In this document: positions 2,475 to 47,567 of the stretch, piece by piece
Numbering within the stretch: the first letter of the stretch is position 1
How the letters are laid out: every line of letters starts with the position of its first letter
DNA from: Escherichia phage vB_EcoM-RPN226
Sequence record: OL770073.2
Reading direction: 5' to 3' (one strand)
DNA: 64,000 bases
Translations under genes and position numbers: made by a program
Notes under the pieces: generated by a model
The model's database searches: none
Told to the model about the DNA's origin: nothing
The model's input: only the letters and a program-made list of their open reading frames with translations

Positions 2475-2966
2475 TTATTCCCAATAATCGAGAGCGAGAG
2501 TTACTTCAAAGGTTTGGATTTCATTGTTTGAATCCCAATCTAATTGAAGTTCACCCACGTTAGTAGGCCACAGACCTTTAATTTCGACTTCTTTTGTTAC
2601 AGTTTTAGCGTCACGAGCATATTGGCGAACAACAGCGCTCTTTTTATACTCTGCTGGTTTTCCACCAGTAATTTCGTTCCCTTGCCCAGCAGCAATGCTT
2701 TGCCAATCAACAAACTTCTGGCGAGCATCATGTGCCTCATCGTTCATTACTGTAACAGTCCAGTCATCGAATGTACGATCGCCTGCTACGTTAATTTTAC
2801 GGTTCATGAATCCGACTGGAATTTTTTCTACAATACCAGCTGGTAAAGCAGTGGCTTTACATTGAAACGTAAAATTTTGTCCAAGATAAGAAATTTCTAC
2901 TTGGAATAAGTTAGGTCGAGCAAAATCACCAGATTCAAACGCTCGTGTTACATCATCTACAAACAT
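2475..2966 (-). CDS. 19: tail tube protein gp19
   Basis: 163 aa, identical length to T4 gp19, located between sheath gene and portal gene. Confidence 0.9.
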   Translation of the reverse strand: MFVDDVTRAFESGDFARPNLFQVEISYLGQNFTFQCKATALPAGIVEKIPVGFMNRKINVAGDRTFDDWTVTVMNDEAHDARQKFVDWQSIAAGQGNEITGGKPAEYKKSAVVRQYARDAKTVTKEVEIKGLWPTNVGELQLDWDSNNEIQTFEVTLALDYWE

Positions 2967-2980
2967 ATTAGCCTCTGTAG

Positions 2981-2988
2981 TATTTATA
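2981..2988 (-). promoter_or_regulatory. late promoter TATAAATA (gene 19)
   Basis: Plus-strand TATTTATA shortly upstream of gp19 start. Confidence 0.6.
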
Positions 2989-3039
2989 TCCCTATGTTTA
3001 ACCTAGGGCATATAGAATTAAAGAATTAAGGATATAGTG

Positions 3040-3047
3040 TATTTATA
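3040..3047 (-). promoter_or_regulatory. second late promoter-like TATAAATA upstream of gene 19
   Basis: Plus-strand TATTTATA; lies between the HNH gene stop and gene 19. Confidence 0.45.
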
Positions 3048-3073
3048 TGGCCTGCCGAAACAGGCCTTTAGAA

Positions 3074-3718
3074 TCATTCTAGTAAATCCCAAAGATCTAC
3101 GCTATTTCTTTTTGACTTTTCTCGGTTAGATTCCCAAGTGATTATTTCTAAATTTTTTACGCTTGCTATAATTTCCGGCGGAATTAAATTATCAAATCCA
3201 TATTTGATAGATACCTTGTGATCAAGTTGGTAAGCACCTTCTACGCCGCACAATCCTATTTTATCAGCATTCGGCCATTTTGACCAAATTTTTCTTATTT
3301 TAGCTGACTTAGTTATAGAATGAACTCTACTAGCATATAATGCAAACTCTTTTCTTTTACCAGTCCATCGAGGATGTTTATCGCCTCTTTGCCATGGTCT
3401 GCTTATTCCAGATTGAACTTCCGAATTTTTAATAGCAACTTGTTTAATGCTACATTTTCTACATGCATGTGTGGGTGTTCTATTTAAAAGCTGAATGCTT
3501 CTACTAAATTTAATACCACACAAATCACATTTAGCGTCAACTATTTTATTACTATTCTTTGGCATTAATTCTATTGGAACAGATATTGTATCATGATATG
3601 ATACTTTATATCCCAGAATTGTCGACCACATTTTTGAATGATTTCTTGGTTTTATTGTAACAAACTTAGAAATAATCACTTGTTTCCTCGAGAATAGGGG
3701 CCGAAGCCCCACAATCAA
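3074..3718 (-). CDS. free-standing HNH-family homing endonuclease (inserted between genes 18 and 19)
   Basis: Cys pairs CDLCG...CRKCS (zinc-finger-like) and C-terminal QLDHKVSIKYGFDNLIPPEIIASVKNLEIITWESN resembling an HNH motif; true start may be internal Met near 3631 because the 5' end overlaps the gene 18 terminator hairpin. Confidence 0.6.
   Translation of the reverse strand: MIVGLRPLFSRKQVIISKFVTIKPRNHSKMWSTILGYKVSYHDTISVPIELMPKNSNKIVDAKCDLCGIKFSRSIQLLNRTPTHACRKCSIKQVAIKNSEVQSGISRPWQRGDKHPRWTGKRKEFALYASRVHSITKSAKIRKIWSKWPNADKIGLCGVEGAYQLDHKVSIKYGFDNLIPPEIIASVKNLEIITWESNREKSKRNSVDLWDLLE
3697..3710 (-). terminator. UUCG-tetraloop hairpin after gene 18 (terminator or RNA stability element)
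   Basis: Minus-strand GGGGCTTCGGCCCC directly after gp18 stop; no strong U-run. Confidence 0.45.
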
Positions 3719-5698
3719 TTAACCTGCAAGACCAGTTAACTCATCGAAATCTGCACCAGTAGCAGTTGCGACGAAATTAAGTTGGATATAATTTATACTA
3801 CGAGCCGGTTGAATGTAGAATGTTGCAACAAACTCATTTCTATCAATTACTGACGGAGTGTTATTTGTTGTATCGCAAACTACACGATATTCATAAATTC
3901 CACCGAGAGCTTTAATTCCCTGCAAGTACTGGGAAGTTTCTGTGCGGAACGATGAACGAGTAAACGCGTTGTTTAATTCGAACAAACGATATTTTGAACT
4001 ACGTCCGATATTCGTTTTTAACATATTAAACAGACGACGAACGTTAATACGATCAAATGGAGAAGGAACAGAAGTAGCTGTTTTATCACCATACAATACG
4101 TAACCATCACCACCTGTACCGGTTACCGGGTTGATAGCTTCTTGATATAAACGGTCGCGCTGCGCCTGGCGAGTTTCAATAGCAAGTTTAATAACGTTAA
4201 GAATCTGGCCACGATTATAACCAGCTGGAGACATCCAAGTCTGAGAAACGTTATCAGTTCTTGCACACAAACCAGCAATATCAGCTGCTAATGGAACCCA
4301 ACGATTCACATCATTATATTTGTCATACTGATACTTGTAGTTACCATCGATTGCTGCATAGGTTGAACTGATATTAAAGTTGTTATCAGTGTATGAACCT
4401 GCTGCAGTTCTCCAATTGACTAAGTTATCAACAGCACGAGTTACAGGAATTCCAACTACAGTTTCACGCGGTGGTGAGCACAGTACTAAGCAATCTTGGC
4501 GAGCATCACCAATTGAAACGACGTGTTTTTGGACAGTAGATGCTGTTTCTAAAGATTCGCCGGCGCAAGAACCCGCAATAAACAACTGAACGTCAACAGA
4601 TTCACGGTCAGCAAAGAAGTCCCAAGCTTCCATCAAATCTCCTGCTGTCACTTCAGCATTTGATGATAATCCACCAGACAGAGTTAAAATTCCAGAGAAG
4701 CCTTCTGGCCAGTTTTGCGCAGTTGCAAAAATATATTCTGAACCACCTTTTGCGAAAAAGTCATCAATATAGATGTTACTATCGTAAATATCTTTTTCAC
4801 CACGCTTTGTTGAAAGAACAACGCTTTGAACAATAGCATCATTGCGACGAACTATAATAGCGTATTGTGAATCAGTTTGTGGTCCATATCCAAACACTGC
4901 CTTGGCAGTAGATGCGCGGGTTCCGCCGCCTGGATAAATTGGAAGTAATGCAGAAGCCCCTTTTGCGTAGTCAGCTTTAGATACGATTTCAATTTCGATT
5001 TTATCGCCCAACTCGCCTGGATAAAGAGCTACTACTCCTGGAATTCCATATTTTTCGAGATTTGCTTGAAAGTCAACAGCTGTCATAGCAGCTTCGGCAT
5101 TTTCAATTTCAGCTAATAAAATACCAGAATCAGTAATAATTTTTCCAAGAGTTATTACTGCAGCTAAACCAGAGGAAGACGAAGAAATTTCCGCGGTCCA
5201 GTTAGAACCTAATGCTGGATATTCGCCTACTTCTTTCGCTTTAGCGATAATTTTTGCGGTAGGAATATTAATTTTCTTAATTTTTCCATCAGCATCTACT
5301 TCGGTAACTTTACATTCTGTTTCAATGTCTTCTGAAACATACTTAACCGTGATTTTATCTCCAACCGCGTAGTTACTACCTGGGGTAGAAATAGTGTATT
5401 CAATATTACCGGCAATCGGAGATGAGTTTTTAGCGGTATCTCTATCGACAGCACGCACAACTCGCAAATCATTTCCGTATTGTAAGAAATTCATTGCAGA
5501 CATAAAATAGTCAGCAGTTTCAGCTGTAGGTTGACCAAAAGTATTAACTAAATCTACTTCGTTTGTAACCTGTTTAATTTGAAAAGCAGGACCCCACTGG
5601 AATTTACCGGCCAAAGCTGCTGTACCAGTAGAGTTATTAACCACGGTGCTTTGAACCGTAGTTTCTTTGAGCTCAATGCCCGGAGATAATAAAGTCAT
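3719..5698 (-). CDS. 18: tail sheath protein gp18
   Basis: 659 aa, same length as T4 gp18; synteny 17-18-19. Confidence 0.9.
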   Translation of the reverse strand: MTLLSPGIELKETTVQSTVVNNSTGTAALAGKFQWGPAFQIKQVTNEVDLVNTFGQPTAETADYFMSAMNFLQYGNDLRVVRAVDRDTAKNSSPIAGNIEYTISTPGSNYAVGDKITVKYVSEDIETECKVTEVDADGKIKKINIPTAKIIAKAKEVGEYPALGSNWTAEISSSSSGLAAVITLGKIITDSGILLAEIENAEAAMTAVDFQANLEKYGIPGVVALYPGELGDKIEIEIVSKADYAKGASALLPIYPGGGTRASTAKAVFGYGPQTDSQYAIIVRRNDAIVQSVVLSTKRGEKDIYDSNIYIDDFFAKGGSEYIFATAQNWPEGFSGILTLSGGLSSNAEVTAGDLMEAWDFFADRESVDVQLFIAGSCAGESLETASTVQKHVVSIGDARQDCLVLCSPPRETVVGIPVTRAVDNLVNWRTAAGSYTDNNFNISSTYAAIDGNYKYQYDKYNDVNRWVPLAADIAGLCARTDNVSQTWMSPAGYNRGQILNVIKLAIETRQAQRDRLYQEAINPVTGTGGDGYVLYGDKTATSVPSPFDRINVRRLFNMLKTNIGRSSKYRLFELNNAFTRSSFRTETSQYLQGIKALGGIYEYRVVCDTTNNTPSVIDRNEFVATFYIQPARSINYIQLNFVATATGADFDELTGLAG

Positions 5699-5726: not shown

Positions 5727-8867
<3,141 letters not shown>

Positions 8868-42895: not shown

Positions 42896-43235
42896 AATTT
42901 TGGTTTTATGCATAGGATTAATTTCATTTTCTGCTTCTGCGTCAGCAGATGCATCATATACTGAAATTAGAGAATATGTAAACCGTACTGCCGCGGATTA
43001 TTGTGGGAAAAATAAAGCATGCCAAGCTGAATTTGCGCAGAAATTAATATATGCATATAAAGACGGGGAAAGAGATAAATTAAGCAGATACAAAAATGAT
43101 ACTTTATTAAAACGATATGCTAAAAAGTGGAATACCTTAGAATGTTCAGTTGCGGAGGAGAAAGATAAAGCCGCTTGTCATTCAATGGTTGACCGTTTGG
43201 TAGATTCTTATAATCGAGGATTGAGTACTAAATGA
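42888..43235 (+). CDS. vs: valyl-tRNA synthetase modifier candidate
   Basis: 115 aa (same as T4 vs) located before tk; signal-peptide-like N-terminus; assignment by size and synteny only. Confidence 0.45.
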   Translation: MTKILVLCIGLISFSASASADASYTEIREYVNRTAADYCGKNKACQAEFAQKLIYAYKDGERDKLSRYKNDTLLKRYAKKWNTLECSVAEEKDKAACHSMVDRLVDSYNRGLSTK

Positions 43236-43699
43236 TTGTAAAATATATCAAGGGCGATATTGTCGCCCTGTTTTCTAAAGGTAATAATATTGCTCATGGG
43301 TGTAATTGTTTTCATACAATGGGCGCCGGTGTGGCAGGACAATTAGCAAAGGCTTATCCAAAAATTCTGGAAGCTGATAAACTACAGACTGAATGGGGTG
43401 ATGTAACTAAACTTGGTTCTTATTCAGTCTATGAAAAATACTTTAGGACCCATAAAGCTTATTGCTTTAATCTTTATACACAGTTTGAGCCGGGACCTAA
43501 TTTTGAGTACTTTGCTTTAATGAATTGTATAATAGAATTAAATGAATTCGGAAAGAATAAAATAACAAAGCCTGTAATTTATATGCCAAGAATTGGTGCA
43601 GGTATCGGTGGCGGAAACTGGGATGTAATCGAAGAGATTTTAGATACGTATTCCACTAAACTAGAAATTGTGATTGTTGATTGGGAACCATTATTATGA
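43232..43699 (+). CDS. macro-domain-like protein (ADP-ribose binding/processing fold)
   Basis: Two glycine-rich motifs IAHGCNCFHTMGAGVAGQL and IYMPRIGAGIGGGNW at macro-domain-like spacing; 155 aa. Confidence 0.55.
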   Translation: MIVKYIKGDIVALFSKGNNIAHGCNCFHTMGAGVAGQLAKAYPKILEADKLQTEWGDVTKLGSYSVYEKYFRTHKAYCFNLYTQFEPGPNFEYFALMNCIIELNEFGKNKITKPVIYMPRIGAGIGGGNWDVIEEILDTYSTKLEIVIVDWEPLL

Positions 43700-43908
43700 A
43701 TATACATTATCCACATCCATACGACCCAAAGAATAAGGCAGTAATTATTCGTCAATGGGAACGCATTTGCCGTACTAAATGTCCAATTAATAGTCCGCAT
43801 GATGTAGATAAAGACTACATTGGAACATTCGTCGAATATACCTTTATTGATAAGAAAGGTCGTAAACAGCATGTAGAAGAATACTGCTTAAAGGTGACAT
43901 GGTTATGA
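43696..43908 (+). CDS. hypothetical protein
   Basis: ATGA overlap with upstream stop; Cys/His-containing 70 aa. Confidence 0.45.
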   Translation: MNIHYPHPYDPKNKAVIIRQWERICRTKCPINSPHDVDKDYIGTFVEYTFIDKKGRKQHVEEYCLKVTWL

Positions 43909-44090
43909 GTTTAAGTAAAGAACAAAAAGACAAACTCTTTTCTCTTATCCATGGAGTTATGGATAAAAATAGTGAATTGGAAAAAGTTTGTGATGAATGC
44001 GGTCCTTTTAGCGCAAACGAGTACGAAGAACTTTCTAAAGAATTCGATAATAAAGAACAAGAACTCATTGATTATATAAATTCCTTATGA
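43905..44090 (+). CDS. small acidic helical protein (paralogue family member)
   Basis: 61 aa; similar to 44087, 46086 and 46292 ORFs. Confidence 0.5.
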   Translation: MSLSKEQKDKLFSLIHGVMDKNSELEKVCDECGPFSANEYEELSKEFDNKEQELIDYINSL

Positions 44091-44275
44091 TTACTCGCGA
44101 ACAAAAGAACGAAATATTATTTTTAGTTAGTGAAATTATTAGTTTAGAAAAGGATTTGTCTTTTGAATTATCTTCTGATTATGGAGATGACGAAACATAT
44201 TACGAATTAGTAAAATCTATCGATAAAGCTGAAAATGATTTAAAAACATATTTAGAAAATTTAACTAAGGGCTAA
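44087..44275 (+). CDS. small acidic helical protein (paralogue family member)
   Basis: 62 aa; MITREQKNEILFLVSEIISLEKDL pattern shared with neighbour. Confidence 0.5.
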   Translation: MITREQKNEILFLVSEIISLEKDLSFELSSDYGDDETYYELVKSIDKAENDLKTYLENLTKG

Positions 44276-44276
44276 G

Positions 44277-44858
44277 ATGGCGAGTTTAATTTTTACTTAT
44301 GCAGCAATGAATGCTGGAAAATCTGCTTCTCTTTTGACTGCTGCGCATAATTATAAAGAACGTGGAATGAGTGTATTAGTTCTTAAGCCTGCTATTGATA
44401 CTCGCGATTCTGTCTGTGAAGTCGTTTCTCGCATTGGAATTAAGCAGGAAGCGAATATTATTACAGATGATATGGATATTTTTGAGTTCTATAAATGGGC
44501 TGAAGCACAAAAAGATATTCATTGCGTATTTGTAGATGAAGCACAGTTTTTAAAAACTGAACAGGTGCATCAATTAAGCCGAATTGTCGATACATATAAT
44601 GTTCCTGTTATGGCTTATGGTCTAAGGACTGATTTCGCTGGAAAATTATTTGAAGGTTCTAAAGAACTTTTGGCGATTGCAGATAAACTTATTGAACTAA
44701 AAGCAGTTTGTCATTGCGGTAAAAAAGCGATTATGACAGCTCGATTAATGGAAGATGGAACACCAGTTAAAGAAGGTAATCAAATCTGTATTGGTGATGA
44801 AATTTATGTTTCTTTGTGCAGAAAACATTGGAATGAATTAACTAAAAAGCTCGGTTAG
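44277..44858 (+). CDS. tk: thymidine kinase
   Basis: 193 aa; P-loop AAMNAGKS; C-terminal zinc ribbon CHCGKK...C; same length as T4 Tk. Confidence 0.95.
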   Translation: MASLIFTYAAMNAGKSASLLTAAHNYKERGMSVLVLKPAIDTRDSVCEVVSRIGIKQEANIITDDMDIFEFYKWAEAQKDIHCVFVDEAQFLKTEQVHQLSRIVDTYNVPVMAYGLRTDFAGKLFEGSKELLAIADKLIELKAVCHCGKKAIMTARLMEDGTPVKEGNQICIGDEIYVSLCRKHWNELTKKLG

Positions 44859-44900
44859 TGCAAAAGTTATAAATAGGTTTATCTAACTAAAGGGGTATAT

Positions 44901-45113
44901 ATGCTACAATTAACTGAAAAGCAACTTCGCAATCTTACTGTTCTTCAATTAGATGAAATTCGTAGGGAAGTTGGAAATATCATTTCAGCTTTGCGTCGAG
45001 AAGTATCACTCAACCAATCTCCGGCAGACTATACTAGATTGCGAAATTTTGAAAAATACCTTGATAAAGTTAAGGCCGTGCATCGGCACAAAGTAAATAC
45101 AGGACAAAAATGA
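44901..45113 (+). CDS. hypothetical protein
   Basis: 70 aa ORF between tk and rI. Confidence 0.5.
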
Positions 45114-45125
45114 TAGGAGGCCTTT

Positions 45126-45419
45126 ATGGCCTTAAAAGCAACGGCACTATTTGCCATGCTAGGATTAGCGTTTGCTTTATCTCCACCGATTGAAGCGAAT
45201 GTCGATCCTCATTTTGATAAATTTATGGAATCTGGTATTAGACATGTTTATATGCTTTTTGAAAATAAAAGCGTAGAATCATCTGAACAGTTCTATAGTT
45301 TTATGCGAACGACCTATAAAAATGACCCGTGCTCTTCAGATTTTGAATGTATAGAGCGAGGCGCGGAGATGGCACAATCATACGCTAGAATTATGAACAT
45401 TAAATTGGAGATTGAATGA
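45126..45419 (+). CDS. rI: lysis inhibition regulator RI
   Basis: 97 aa with signal-anchor MALKATALFAMLGLAFALS; matches T4 RI as recalled. Confidence 0.85.
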   Translation: MALKATALFAMLGLAFALSPPIEANVDPHFDKFMESGIRHVYMLFENKSVESSEQFYSFMRTTYKNDPCSSDFECIERGAEMAQSYARIMNIKLEIE

Positions 45420-45802
45420 AATTCAGCGACTTTTCACAAAGTGGAAAACCTTCAAAGGCAGATGAATACTTAGGTTTATTAATGGCTGCACAAGCTTATT
45501 TTCATTCTGCGCATTTTGAAACTAAAAGTTATGCTAGACACAAAGCATACGATTTTATTTTCTCTGAGTTGCCAGATTTGATTGATAAATTTGGTGAGCA
45601 ATATTTGGGGTATTCTGGTAGAAAATACACACCTTCTATTCCAGATGCCAGTAAACTTCCTACCGACACAATTAAAATGATTGATCGCATACTAGACCAA
45701 TCTAACAGCATTTACAAAGAAATGCCTCCAGCCATTCAAAGCACGATAGATGATATTACTGGAATGTTTTATCAAAGTAAATATCTTCTTTCTCTCGAAT
45801 AA
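45416..45802 (+). CDS. hypothetical protein (rI.1 position)
   Basis: 128 aa ORF overlapping rI stop. Confidence 0.55.
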
Positions 45803-45807
45803 CATTA

Positions 45808-45829
45808 GTCTCCTTCGGGAGACTTTTTT
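45808..45829 (+). terminator. rho-independent terminator
   Basis: GTCTCCTTCGGGAGAC hairpin plus TTTTTT. Confidence 0.8.
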
Positions 45830-45839
45830 CATTTTACCG

Positions 45840-45870
45840 GTTTACTTTCCACTTGAGCTGTGATACTATA
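45840..45870 (+). promoter_or_regulatory. T4-type early promoter
   Basis: GTTTAC...TGATACTATACAACC. Confidence 0.6.
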
Positions 45871-45897
45871 CAACCATCAGATAAAGAGGAGAACATC

Positions 45898-46086
45898 ATG
45901 AAAATTGAAGCACTTAATAAAGAAGGAAATATCTACGTCATCATTAATGGTGATTTTTTCGTCGACATGGATGAAGTTACCAGTGAAGAACTTGTAGAAC
46001 TTCTTAAGAAACGTTATGATATGTGTGATGAAGCTGCAACTCATATGGCGTGTGCAATATTCTCTCTTTCATATGTGGTGGAATAA
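45898..46086 (+). CDS. hypothetical protein
   Basis: Start at ATG after GAGGAG RBS; 62 aa. Confidence 0.5.
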
Positions 46087-46289
46087 TGATTAGTATCGAA
46101 CAAGCAGATAAAATTAAAGAATTGGTAGCTTTAATTCGCAAAGCAGATGAGGAACTTAGTGACTTTGCTTGGTTTTCGTCAGGCATTGCAAATAAAGGCG
46201 CTGAAGAACTTGAAGCTAAAGTTGATAATGCTGTAGAAGCTTTAGATATGTTTCTTGATGAAATTATCGATCACAATACGAGAGTTTAA
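46086..46289 (+). CDS. small acidic helical protein (paralogue family member)
   Basis: TAATG overlap; [24 protein letters not shown]. Confidence 0.5.
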   Translation: MISIEQADKIKELVALIRKADEELSDFAWFSSGIANKGAEELEAKVDNAVEALDMFLDEIIDHNTRV

Positions 46290-46291
46290 GT

Positions 46292-46492
46292 ATGCTGACA
46301 CACGAACAGTTTGAAAAAATCATTAAATTAGCACGTGATGTTGAAATAGATTCATATCAATTAGCAGTTGAGCATTGTGAAGGATATTCATATGAAGGTA
46401 TAGCAGCAGCTAAAAGAGATTTGGATGAATCTAAAGCTAAGTTAGTTCAATATCTTGAAATGATTAGGTGGAATAATGAAAACTGTAGTTAA
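46292..46492 (+). CDS. small acidic helical protein (paralogue family member)
   Basis: MLTHEQFEKIIKLARDVEID; 66 aa. Confidence 0.5.
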   Translation: MLTHEQFEKIIKLARDVEIDSYQLAVEHCEGYSYEGIAAAKRDLDESKAKLVQYLEMIRWNNENCS

Positions 46493-47486
46493 GTCTTATT
46501 TTGGTAGTCATCTTTATGGAACTTCTACTCCAGAATCTGATGTAGATTTTAAAGAAATCTTTGTTCCTCCTGCTCGTGATATTCTTATTGGAAATGTTAA
46601 AGAGCATATGAGCAAAAACACTAACAACACATCATCTAAAAACACTAAAGATGATATTGACCATGAACTATACAGTCTTAAGTATTTCTTTAAATTAGCA
46701 GCAGATGGTGAAACCGTAGCATTGGATATGCTCCACACTCCACCTGAACTGGTAGTTAAATCTGATTTGCCTGATGTATGGAAGTTTATTCAAGACAATC
46801 GTTCTCGTTTTTATACGACTAACATGAAATCCTATTTAGGATATGTCCGCAAGCAAGCTTCTAAATACGGTGTCAAGGGTTCTCGTTTGGCCGCATTACG
46901 TGATGTATTGAAAGTAGTTAATCAAATCCCTGACCAGTGGGTCGACTATCAAGAAGGAATCCCTGATAGACTTCGTCGCACTAAAGTTGAAGATATTAAG
47001 CATCGTCTTCCAGAAAACGAGTTCTGCGAATGGGTATTCTATAATCATGAGAAAACAGGCCCGCAAACGTTCTATACTGTGTTGAGTCGTAAATATCAGA
47101 CTACACTTTCTCTTATTGAGCTTAAGCAGTCTTTGAATAAACTTGATGCTGAATATGGTGAACGTGCTCGTAAAGCTGAAGCGAATGAGGGTATTGACTG
47201 GAAAGCTCTGAGTCATGCTTGTCGTGGTGGACTCCAACTATTGGAAATTTACAAAACCGGTGACTTAGTTTATCCACTTCAAGACGCTCCATTTATTCTC
47301 GACGTGAAGCTGGGTAAGCATCCATTTAAAACTGTTCAAGAGTTTTTGGAAGATGTGGTCGATCAAGTAGAAGCAGCATCCATTGAAGCTTCTAAGAACG
47401 GTATGCAACAAAAAGTAGACATGGGTTTCTGGGATGACTTCCTTGAGAGGGTTTATCTTGAAAACCATCGAAGTTATTATAAATGA
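46476..47486 (+). CDS. Pol-beta-superfamily nucleotidyltransferase-like protein
   Basis: N-terminal motif YFGSHLYGTSTPESDVDF (G-S...D-x-D) with a candidate third acidic residue in VALDML; 336 aa. Confidence 0.55.
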   Translation: MKTVVKSYFGSHLYGTSTPESDVDFKEIFVPPARDILIGNVKEHMSKNTNNTSSKNTKDDIDHELYSLKYFFKLAADGETVALDMLHTPPELVVKSDLPDVWKFIQDNRSRFYTTNMKSYLGYVRKQASKYGVKGSRLAALRDVLKVVNQIPDQWVDYQEGIPDRLRRTKVEDIKHRLPENEFCEWVFYNHEKTGPQTFYTVLSRKYQTTLSLIELKQSLNKLDAEYGERARKAEANEGIDWKALSHACRGGLQLLEIYKTGDLVYPLQDAPFILDVKLGKHPFKTVQEFLEDVVDQVEAASIEASKNGMQQKVDMGFWDDFLERVYLENHRSYYK

Positions 47487-47488
47487 TA

Positions 47489-47512
47489 GGGAGCCTTCGG
47501 GCTCCCTTTTTT
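47489..47512 (+). terminator. rho-independent terminator
   Basis: GGGAGCCTTCGGGCTCCC hairpin plus TTTTTT. Confidence 0.8.
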
Positions 47513-47536: not shown

Positions 47537-47567
47537 GTTTACAAGCATAAAGCTTTATGGTACTATA
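47537..47567 (+). promoter_or_regulatory. T4-type early promoter
   Basis: TTTTTCACAAAACTGTTTACA...TGGTACTATACAACTATCAACT. Confidence 0.65.

What the first reader, a model, noticed from the sequence alone, without database searches (positions are those of the whole stretch)
43905..46492. Four small paralogous acidic helical proteins in two tandem pairs flanking tk and rI
ORFs at 43905, 44087, 46086 and 46292 (61-67 aa) share an N-terminal xxxxEQxxKIxxLVxxI pattern and acidic C-terminal halves. They occur as two tandem pairs with overlapping stop and start codons. Small duplicated early proteins of this kind in T-even phages are often host-takeover or anti-defence factors.
Basis: seen in the sequence. 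Interest (0 to 1): 0.4.

Follow-up and report, generated by a model that had tools for sequence, protein, structure and literature searches.

The report
Four paralogous T4 helical-hairpin proteins (DUF7438)
The four small acidic proteins really are relatives of one another, but they are the already catalogued phage T4 genes tk.2, tk.1, mobD.4 and mobD.3 (Pfam DUF7438), a dispensable, copy-number-variable family of two-helix hairpins whose function is still unknown.

Summary
The window is a T4-like phage (Tequatrovirus). The four ORFs are the orthologues of T4 tk.2, tk.1, mobD.4 and mobD.3. All four match Pfam DUF7438 (55-67 bits, cut-off 25) and PHROG 653. A family HMM finds exactly these four in the 64 kb window.

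AlphaFold2 models of Tk.1 and MobD.4 are simple antiparallel two-helix hairpins. The conserved positions are mostly structural: two helix N-caps and an a/d hydrophobic core. Fold and sequence searches find no characterised relative.

The family is narrow, with 35 clusters among 1.84 billion proteins, and sits mostly in Tevenvirinae. Genomes carry 2 to 6 copies in varying subsets. Published T4 data show all four are made early or middle in infection and are dispensable in the laboratory host. dN/dS of about 0.15 shows they are constrained proteins.

The paralogy is therefore real but already on record. The anti-defence or host-takeover idea is plausible and untested. My best guess, about 35% likely, is that they are independently acting small protein-binding modulators with diversified surfaces. 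I rate the interest low to moderate.

The parts
43905..44090 (+). tk.2 orthologue, 61 aa, DUF7438 member. Its start overlaps the tk.3 stop (ATGA).
   Evidence: ORF. Pfam DUF7438 E=1.3e-18. PHROG 653. 58 of 61 residues identical to T4 Tk.2.
44087..44275 (+). tk.1 orthologue, 62 aa, DUF7438 member. Its start overlaps the tk.2 stop (ATGA) and no good Shine-Dalgarno precedes it, which suggests translational coupling.
   Evidence: Pfam E=7.6e-15. AF2 hairpin H4-29/H35-61, pLDDT 93.6.
46086..46289 (+). mobD.4 orthologue, 67 aa, DUF7438 member. This is the long-loop allele (T4 has 60 aa). Its start overlaps the mobD.5 stop (TAATG).
   Evidence: Pfam E=8.8e-16. AF2 hairpin H4-30/H36-66, pLDDT 82.4. 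Loop indel relative to T4.
46292..46492 (+). mobD.3 orthologue, 66 aa, DUF7438 member. It starts 2 nt after the mobD.4 stop, and its 3' end overlaps the nrdC.11 start by 17 nt.
   Evidence: Pfam E=2.4e-15. PHROG 653.
43696..43908 (+). tk.3 orthologue (DUF7202), upstream member of the coupled tk.3-tk.2-tk.1-tk string. Not a family member.
   Evidence: Pfam DUF7202 E=2e-38. T4 annotation.
44277..44858 (+). tk, thymidine kinase. It starts 1 nt after the tk.1 stop.
   Evidence: 192 of 193 residues identical to T4 Tk.
44901..45802 (+). rI.1, rI (antiholin) and rI.-1, the genes between the two pairs. Not family members.
   Evidence: rI.1 = PHROG 1826 with no DUF7438 hit.
45807..45832 (+). Intrinsic-terminator-like hairpin plus T run after rI.-1. 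It separates the two transcription units.
   Evidence: stem 45807-45824, 7 pairs, TTTTTCATTT tail.
45840..45869 (+). T4 early-promoter-like site (GTTTAC ... TG.TACTAT) upstream of mobD.5-mobD.4-mobD.3.
   Evidence: Read from the sequence. It scores below the threshold of the consensus scan. A mobD.5 promoter and an early transcript are reported for T4 in PMC1702504.
45898..46086 (+). mobD.5 orthologue (PHROG 3024), first gene of the second unit. Not a family member.
46476..47486 (+). nrdC.11 nucleotidyltransferase, which abuts mobD.3 directly. The mobD.2a-mobD.2-mobD.1-mobD cassette of T4 is absent here.
   Evidence: No tblastn hit for MobD.2a in the window.

Best explanation
Shown, about 97% sure: the four ORFs are the orthologues of phage T4 tk.2, tk.1, mobD.4 and mobD.3. 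They are anciently diverged paralogues (20-27% identity) of one small family, Pfam DUF7438 / PHROG 653. Each is a roughly 60-residue acidic antiparallel two-helix hairpin. They are real, expressed, selectively constrained proteins made early or middle in infection, and they are dispensable in the laboratory host.

Inferred, about 35% sure: each protein acts on its own as a stoichiometric protein-binding modulator of a host (or competitor) factor, that is, an accessory host-takeover or counter-defence protein. The conserved hairpin would serve as a scaffold. A surplus hydrophobic patch at the end where the N- and C-termini meet (family-alignment A4 columns 3, 12, 15, 59, 63) would serve self-association into a four-helix bundle or docking. 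The variable acidic surface and loop would give each paralogue its own specificity. Duplication, loss and allele exchange in the plastic tk-rI-mobD region would then tune the repertoire to the hosts met.
For: Identity:
- The window is 96-97% identical to Tequatrovirus genomes, and the gene order matches T4.
- Pfam DUF7438 scores 55-67 bits against a cut-off of 25. PHROG 653 matches at E 1e-22 to 1e-24.
- Shuffle z-scores are 4-6, and the window holds exactly four copies.

Fold:
- AF2 hairpins have pLDDT 93.6 (Tk.1) and 82.4 (MobD.4).
- Conserved columns are two N-cap motifs (T-x-E-Q; S/T at column 37), an a/d core with Ala at the crossing, and extra hydrophobics at e/b positions near the termini.

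Real genes:
- dN/dS is 0.14-0.18 against a Mosigvirus.
- All four are detected as RNA and protein in T4 (PMC9697503 supplement).
- Transcription signals are on record: the middle promoters Ptk.3 and PmobD.3 (PMC2988021) and a mobD.5 early promoter (PMC1702504).

Accessory character:
- All four are 'Not Fit' (no fitness defect) in the CRISPRi-ART knock-down screen (PMC11879866 supplement).
- nrdC.11-mobD.3 is deletable (PMC9825161).
- Copy number ranges from 2 to 6, with different subsets per genome.
- Only 168 of 549 phages with a near-identical tk carry the T4-type tk.2-tk.1.
- MobD.4 has loop-length alleles.
- tk.1 shows 6 non-synonymous and 0 synonymous differences between the window and T4 (Fisher test against tk, p=6e-4).

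Independence of members: RB3 has a Tk.2-type copy without Tk.1. P896 has MobD.3 without MobD.4. phi25-307 has neither MobD.4 nor MobD.3.
Against: - No target, phenotype or interaction is known.
- Almost all conserved residues are structural, so no conserved functional surface is visible.
- Dispensability, acidity and early timing are shared by a large share of T4 ORFs, so they discriminate weakly.
- Self-association is inferred from the hydrophobic pattern only. No multimer prediction could be run.
- The tk.1 substitution excess rests on six differences.
Confidence: 0.4

Rival explanations
1. They are accessory subunits or regulators of the phage's own functions encoded next to them. Candidates are thymidine kinase/nucleotide salvage for tk.2 and tk.1, or lysis inhibition (rI), rather than host-directed factors.
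For: One to three family copies sit directly upstream of tk in the Tequatrovirus, Gaprivervirus, Gelderlandvirus and Mosigvirus genomes examined and in a metagenomic T4-like contig, L004, which has three tandem copies. The tk.3-tk.2-tk.1-tk string has overlapping or abutting stop and start codons, which suggests coupled translation.
Against: - The mobD-side copies are in a separate transcription unit behind a terminator.
- The distant member in L007 has no tk neighbour.
- RB3-type phages keep a 97% identical tk but lack Tk.1.
- Synteny among related phages is expected by descent alone.
Confidence: 0.15
2. They are nucleic-acid mimics, or Rop-like four-helix-bundle proteins that act on DNA- or RNA-binding proteins, or on RNA itself.
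For: They are small and acidic (pI 4.25-4.85, net charge -5 to -9). Their size and helix-loop-helix layout match Rop (my own knowledge of Rop). The a/d/e hydrophobic pattern is compatible with hairpin dimers.
Confidence: 0.1
3. They are functionless or decaying duplicated ORFs carried along in a plastic genome region.
For: Knock-downs have no fitness effect. Copies are often lost, and the T4 reference sequence carries a frameshifted fifth copy.
Against: - dN/dS is 0.14-0.18.
- The proteins are detected in infected cells.
- Each paralogue has orthologues in other genera that are closer to it than its own paralogues are.
- The hairpin core and caps are conserved across 29 diverse members.
- The 'frameshifted' copy is intact in about 490 other records, including another T4 stock.
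Confidence: 0.05
4. They are what some GenBank records call them: 'helicase loader' or 'molybdopterin-guanine dinucleotide biosynthesis protein MobD'.
For: These labels appear on family members in public records. PHROG 4859, labelled 'helicase loader', weakly matches MobD.4 (E=3e-5).
Against: A 60-residue hairpin has no similarity to any solved helicase loader or molybdopterin enzyme. 'MobD' in T4 names a mobile homing endonuclease gene, and the numbered genes are merely its neighbours. One record gives the 'helicase loader' label to all six paralogues, which looks like automated label transfer (that is my inference).
Confidence: 0.02

Closest known systems
Pfam DUF7438 (PF24219) / PHROG 653: T4 Tk.2, Tk.1, MobD.4, MobD.3
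   Same: Full-length matches well above threshold. Same length, same gene order and neighbours, and about 90-95% amino-acid identity to the T4 proteins where the lengths match.
   Different: Allelic differences only. MobD.4 here has the 67-aa long-loop allele against 60 aa in T4. MobD.3 has two extra C-terminal residues. The fifth copy, mobD.2a (PHROG 2758), and the mobD cassette are absent.
Rop/ROM (ColE1 repressor of primer), a 63-aa helical hairpin that dimerises into a four-helix bundle
   Same: Similar size, helix-loop-helix layout and acidity (the Rop properties come from my own knowledge). The hydrophobic pattern here is compatible with hairpin dimerisation.
   Different: No detectable sequence relationship. 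Rop binds RNA kissing complexes, and nothing suggests that here. The oligomeric state of DUF7438 proteins is unknown.
Small acidic phage inhibitor or decoy proteins of T-even phages and relatives (e.g. Arn, Ocr, IPI*, anti-CRISPRs)
   Same: Small, acidic, early, dispensable in laboratory hosts, and encoded in variable accessory regions.
   Different: No sequence or specific fold similarity. The best PDB sequence hit is an anti-CRISPR at a non-significant E=0.12. No known target and no inhibition assay.

Membership tests
Pfam DUF7438 (PF24219) | Whole-protein HMM score above the curated gathering threshold (25 bits), matched end to end | tested here: met
   67.5, 55.5, 58.5 and 57.1 bits. Profile positions 1-57 of 57 are matched in all four.
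Pfam DUF7438 (PF24219) | About 60-residue protein consisting of the domain alone | tested here: met
   61, 62, 67 and 66 aa. Family representatives are 49-76 aa, apart from a 117-aa and a 320-aa outlier.
Pfam DUF7438 (PF24219) | Two-helix antiparallel hairpin with an N-terminal T-x-E-Q cap and a C-terminal L-x-x-[YF]-[LIV]-E-x-[LI] motif (derived here from 29 members) | tested here: met
   AF2 models and column statistics. All four window proteins carry both motifs.
PHROG 653 | Best PHROG hit with a full-length match | tested here: met
   E 1.5e-24, 6.3e-22, 2.4e-22 and 1.6e-23. The same assignment for the T4 genes appears in the PMC11879866 supplement.
Rop/ROM family | Detectable sequence or profile similarity to Rop | tested here: not met
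   hhalign probability 0.1%, 1 aligned column.
Rop/ROM family | Homodimeric four-helix bundle | not testable with these tools
   Only monomer prediction was available. The hydrophobic a/d/e pattern is compatible but not decisive.
Known anti-defence / DNA-mimic proteins | Homology to a characterised inhibitor, or demonstrated inhibition of a defence system | tested here: not met
   The homology half was tested and not met. No significant PDB sequence hit (best is an anti-CRISPR at E=0.12). All BFVD neighbours are uncharacterised. The literature search found no functional report. An inhibition assay cannot be run here.
Helicase loader (label in some GenBank records / PHROG 4859) | Similarity to a characterised helicase-loading protein | tested here: not met
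   No such hit in Pfam, NCBIfam or PDB. The label is applied wholesale to all six paralogues in one record.

The most novel reading that the evidence does not exclude
DUF7438 is a diversifying multigene family of minimal helical-hairpin inhibitors. Each paralogue (Tk.2, Tk.1, MobD.4, MobD.3, MobD.2a and a sixth type) neutralises a different host immunity or physiology factor. The 2-6 copy repertoire of a T-even phage would then help set its host range.
Probability: 0.25. Interest if true: 0.55.

Novelty: already known. Interest (0 to 1): 0.25.

Why it matters
As it stands, this re-discovers a catalogued family of unknown function in the best-studied phage, so it adds little.

It would matter if the function were found. 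The family is present in hundreds of T-even phages used in therapy and research. It is expressed early, is under purifying selection, and varies in copy number and allele from phage to phage, which is typical of genes that decide which strains a phage can infect. The family is also small and simple enough (60 residues, two helices) to be an attractive system for studying how a minimal scaffold diversifies its binding specificity.

Tried and rejected
- **rI.1 as a fifth member.** Its N-terminus (TEKQLRNL) looks similar. It was rejected: no Pfam or PHROG match, shuffle z of 2.9 or less, hhalign probability 1.6%, and it is basic with pI 10.2.
- **More copies in the window.** None were found.
- **Relationship to Rop.** None.
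- **PDB profile search.** Nothing significant.
- **PADLOC and NCBIfam.** Nothing.
- **The search for related loci with the broad alignment.** It failed because no block was conserved enough.
- **Tk.2/Tk.1 chimera (P0049, UFV-AREG1) as evidence of recombination between paralogues.** Rejected as a probable artefact, because the current RefSeq record has two separate genes.
- **Natural tandem fusions that could be folded as a surrogate dimer.** P0072 is a MobD.5-MobD.4 fusion, and P0116 carries an unrelated C-terminal extension in an uninformative context.
- **A metal site from the CxxC in the Tk.2 loop.** It is not conserved in Tk.2 orthologues.
- **'Pair duplication' origin (Tk.2~MobD.4, Tk.1~MobD.3).** Clustering gives weak support only for Tk.1 with MobD.3, so the question is left open.
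- **Literature searches.** Searches for gene names, locus tags and family accessions found no functional study.
Full report
**What is in the sequence**

On the + strand there are ORFs at 43905-44090 (61 aa), 44087-44275 (62 aa), 46086-46289 (67 aa) and 46292-46492 (66 aa). The window is a T4-like phage. The 3-kb stretch is 96-97% identical to many Tequatrovirus genomes. The gene order matches T4: vs.1, vs, tk.4, tk.3, tk.2, tk.1, tk, rI.1, rI, rI.-1, mobD.5, mobD.4, mobD.3, then nrdC.11. The four ORFs are therefore the orthologues of T4 tk.2, tk.1, mobD.4 and mobD.3.

The junctions, read, are:
- tk.3/tk.2 and tk.2/tk.1 overlap as ATGA.
- tk starts 1 nt after the tk.1 stop.
- mobD.5/mobD.4 overlap as TAATG.
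- mobD.3 starts 2 nt after the mobD.4 stop.

Only the first pair has overlapping stop and start codons.

**Is the similarity more than chance?**

Yes.
- Smith-Waterman scores against 500 shuffles give z = 4.1-5.9 for five of the six pairs. The mobD.4/mobD.3 pair gives 2.3. Neighbouring small proteins (tk.3, mobD.5) score at background.
- All four match Pfam DUF7438 (PF24219) from the first to the last profile position, with 55-67 bits against a cut-off of 25.
- All four match PHROG 653 with E 1e-22 to 1e-24.
- An HMM of the family finds exactly these four in all six frames of the 64-kb window. The next best hit has E = 0.77.
- rI.1 has a look-alike N-terminus but is basic (pI 10.2) and is not a member.

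All four proteins are acidic, with pI 4.25-4.85 and net charge -5 to -9. The charge lies mainly in the C-terminal half only in Tk.2 and MobD.4.

**Anatomy**

AlphaFold2 models Tk.1 as two helices (4-29 and 35-61) with pLDDT 93.6. It models MobD.4 as helices 4-30 and 36-66 with pLDDT 82.4. Both are antiparallel helical hairpins.

Across 29 diverse members (alignment A4), the conserved columns are mostly structural:
- M-[IL]-T-x-E-Q at the N-terminus, which reads as a helix N-cap.
- An S/T cap at the start of helix 2, and a loop glycine.
- A heptad a/d core (columns 11, 14, 18, 21=Ala, 25; 41, 44, 48, 51=Ala/Ser, 55, 58, 62).
- Extra hydrophobic positions (columns 3, 12, 15, 59, 63) at the end of the hairpin where the two termini meet.

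The loop and the loop-proximal surfaces vary. MobD.4 even has loop-length alleles, 67 aa here against 60 aa in T4. I infer that the fold is a conserved scaffold. The surplus hydrophobic patch could serve self-association or docking, and specificity would lie in the variable surface. That inference is not tested.

**Distribution and dynamics**

An exhaustive profile search of 1.84 billion representative proteins finds only 35 clusters with E < 1e-3, nearly all 49-76 aa. The loci whose source could be identified are mostly Tevenvirinae or T4-like metagenomic contigs. Two distant members sit in other phage-like contigs.

Copy number differs between genomes:

| Genome | Copies | Notes |
|---|---|---|
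| Salmonella phage S16 | 2 | Both upstream of tk |
| Phage P896 (Gaprivervirus) | 3 | Has MobD.3 without MobD.4 |
| Metagenomic contig L004 | 3 | In tandem, directly upstream of tk |
| This window | 4 | tk.2, tk.1, mobD.4, mobD.3 |
| Mosigvirus phi25-307 | 4 | A different set, without MobD.4 or MobD.3 |
| RB3 | 5 | Has a Tk.2-type copy but no Tk.1 |
| Shigella phage vb_GEC_SH_GT | 6 | All labelled 'helicase loader' in the record |

The members occur independently of each other, so the 'pair' is not a conserved unit.

Of 549 phages with a matching tk, mostly 97-98% identical, only 168 carry the T4-type tk.2-tk.1 next to it. Each window paralogue is closer to its orthologues in other genera than to its own paralogues, which are 20-27% identical. 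The duplications are therefore old.

**Are they real genes, and when are they made?**

dN/dS against the Mosigvirus copies is 0.14-0.18 for tk.2 and tk.1, which indicates purifying selection. Between this window and T4, tk.1 shows 6 non-synonymous and 0 synonymous differences. That differs from tk (1 and 10; Fisher p = 6e-4) but rests on few sites.

Published T4 data agree:
- All four are detected as RNA and protein. mobD.3 and mobD.4 are classed early-RNA/early-protein, and tk.1 and tk.2 are classed early-RNA/middle-protein (PMC9697503 supplement).
- Middle promoters Ptk.3 and PmobD.3 are listed in PMC2988021.
- A mobD.5 promoter with an early transcript is reported in PMC1702504.

In the window, a terminator-like hairpin at 45807-45824 is followed by an early-promoter-like GTTTAC...TACTAT at 45840-45869 (read). 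This fits a separate early unit mobD.5-mobD.4-mobD.3.

All four genes are 'Not Fit' in the T4 CRISPRi-ART screen, meaning knock-down causes no defect, and that table already assigns them to phrog_653 (PMC11879866 supplement). The nrdC.11-mobD.3 segment was lost in genome-reduced T4 (PMC9825161).

**Comparison with what is known**

No characterised relative was found.
- The profile search of PDB sequences has a best E of 0.12.
- Foldseek against the PDB gives nothing below E = 0.3.
- BFVD returns only uncharacterised phage proteins, among them recognisable family members.
- PADLOC and NCBIfam return nothing.
- Rop, which has the same size and layout, shows no profile similarity.

The GenBank labels 'helicase loader' and 'molybdopterin-guanine dinucleotide biosynthesis protein MobD' look like annotation artefacts. 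Literature searches by gene name, locus tag and family accession found no functional study.

**Most likely explanation**

The identity is settled. For function, I consider it most likely, at about 35%, that these are independently acting small protein-binding modulators of host factors (host-takeover or counter-defence). The support is their timing, dispensability, mosaic and copy-number-variable distribution, structural-only conservation and variable surfaces.

The rivals are:
- Accessory factors of the neighbouring phage functions, tk or rI (about 15%).
- Nucleic-acid mimics or Rop-like bundles (about 10%).
- Functionless remnants (about 5%, contradicted by selection and proteomics).
- The database labels (about 2%).

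**Verdict**

It is already recorded as Pfam DUF7438 and PHROG 653, and these are orthologues of named T4 genes. The functional suggestion remains an untested guess. What this analysis adds is the family's anatomy, its 2-6 copy dynamics, and the recognition that T4 'mobD.2a' is a split fifth member.

Noticed in passing
L001 (T4 NC_000866) 5997-6166, minus strand; absent from the window: T4 reference gene mobD.2a and the short ORF after it are the two halves of a frameshifted fifth DUF7438 copy. The reconstructed 57-aa protein hits Pfam DUF7438 at E=1.6e-14 and PHROG 2758. It is intact as a single tblastn piece in about 490 Tequatrovirus records, including T4 'wild' KJ477684, where it is unannotated. 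So the reference carries either a sequencing error or a strain-specific frameshift.
   Followed up: yes
window 46476-46492: mobD.3 overlaps the start of nrdC.11 by 17 nt. The whole mobD.2a-mobD.2-mobD.1-mobD (homing endonuclease) cassette of T4 is missing in this phage.
   Followed up: partly
window 46086-46289 versus L001 6356-6535: MobD.4 exists as loop-length alleles, 67 aa here and in Shigella phage vb_GEC_SH_GT against 60 aa in T4. The helices are nearly identical.
   Followed up: partly
window 44087-44272 versus T4: tk.1 differs from T4 by 6 non-synonymous and 0 synonymous changes, whereas the adjacent tk has 1 and 10 (Fisher p=6e-4). The sample is small, so this could be relaxed or positive selection, or a mosaic allele.
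   Followed up: partly
L013 (Mosigvirus phi25-307) 3292-4454 versus the window: The tk.3-tk.2-tk.1 block is far more similar between this Mosigvirus and T4-type phages (dS 0.2-0.4; tk.3 protein identical) than the adjacent tk (dS about 0.85). This suggests recent exchange of the small-gene block.
   Followed up: no
L012 (RB3) 2927-3491: Most Tequatroviruses (RB3 type) have two unrelated small ORFs plus a single Gaprivervirus-like Tk.2 allele upstream of a 97% identical tk, in place of the T4-type tk.2-tk.1.
   Followed up: partly
public records: Family members are mislabelled 'molybdopterin-guanine dinucleotide biosynthesis protein MobD' (apparently from the T4 gene name mobD.x) and 'helicase loader' (apparently from PHROG 4859). 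The latter label is given to all six paralogues in OR887633.
   Followed up: partly
P0049 (UniRef entry for phage UFV-AREG1) versus L014: A 64-aa protein looks like a Tk.2 N-half fused to a Tk.1 C-half. The current RefSeq record has two separate genes, so the chimera is probably an artefact of an older assembly.
   Followed up: yes
window 47488-47507 and 47538-47566: A second strong terminator hairpin (8 pairs, 6 GC) is followed by a promoter-like TTTACA-17-TACTAT with an upstream TG. It lies between nrdC.11 and nrdC.10, in the same layout as the terminator and promoter upstream of mobD.5.
   Followed up: no
window 43232-43699: tk.4 orthologue (155 aa). Related records annotate it as a macro-domain (A1pp) protein or phosphatase. 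It lies immediately upstream of the tk.3-tk.2-tk.1 string.
   Followed up: no
P0103 (320 aa, metagenomic): This protein has five repeats of an 'LTDEQKERI(I/V)AL' motif that matches only the first 16 profile positions of DUF7438. It is probably an unrelated repeat protein sharing the helix-cap motif.
   Followed up: no
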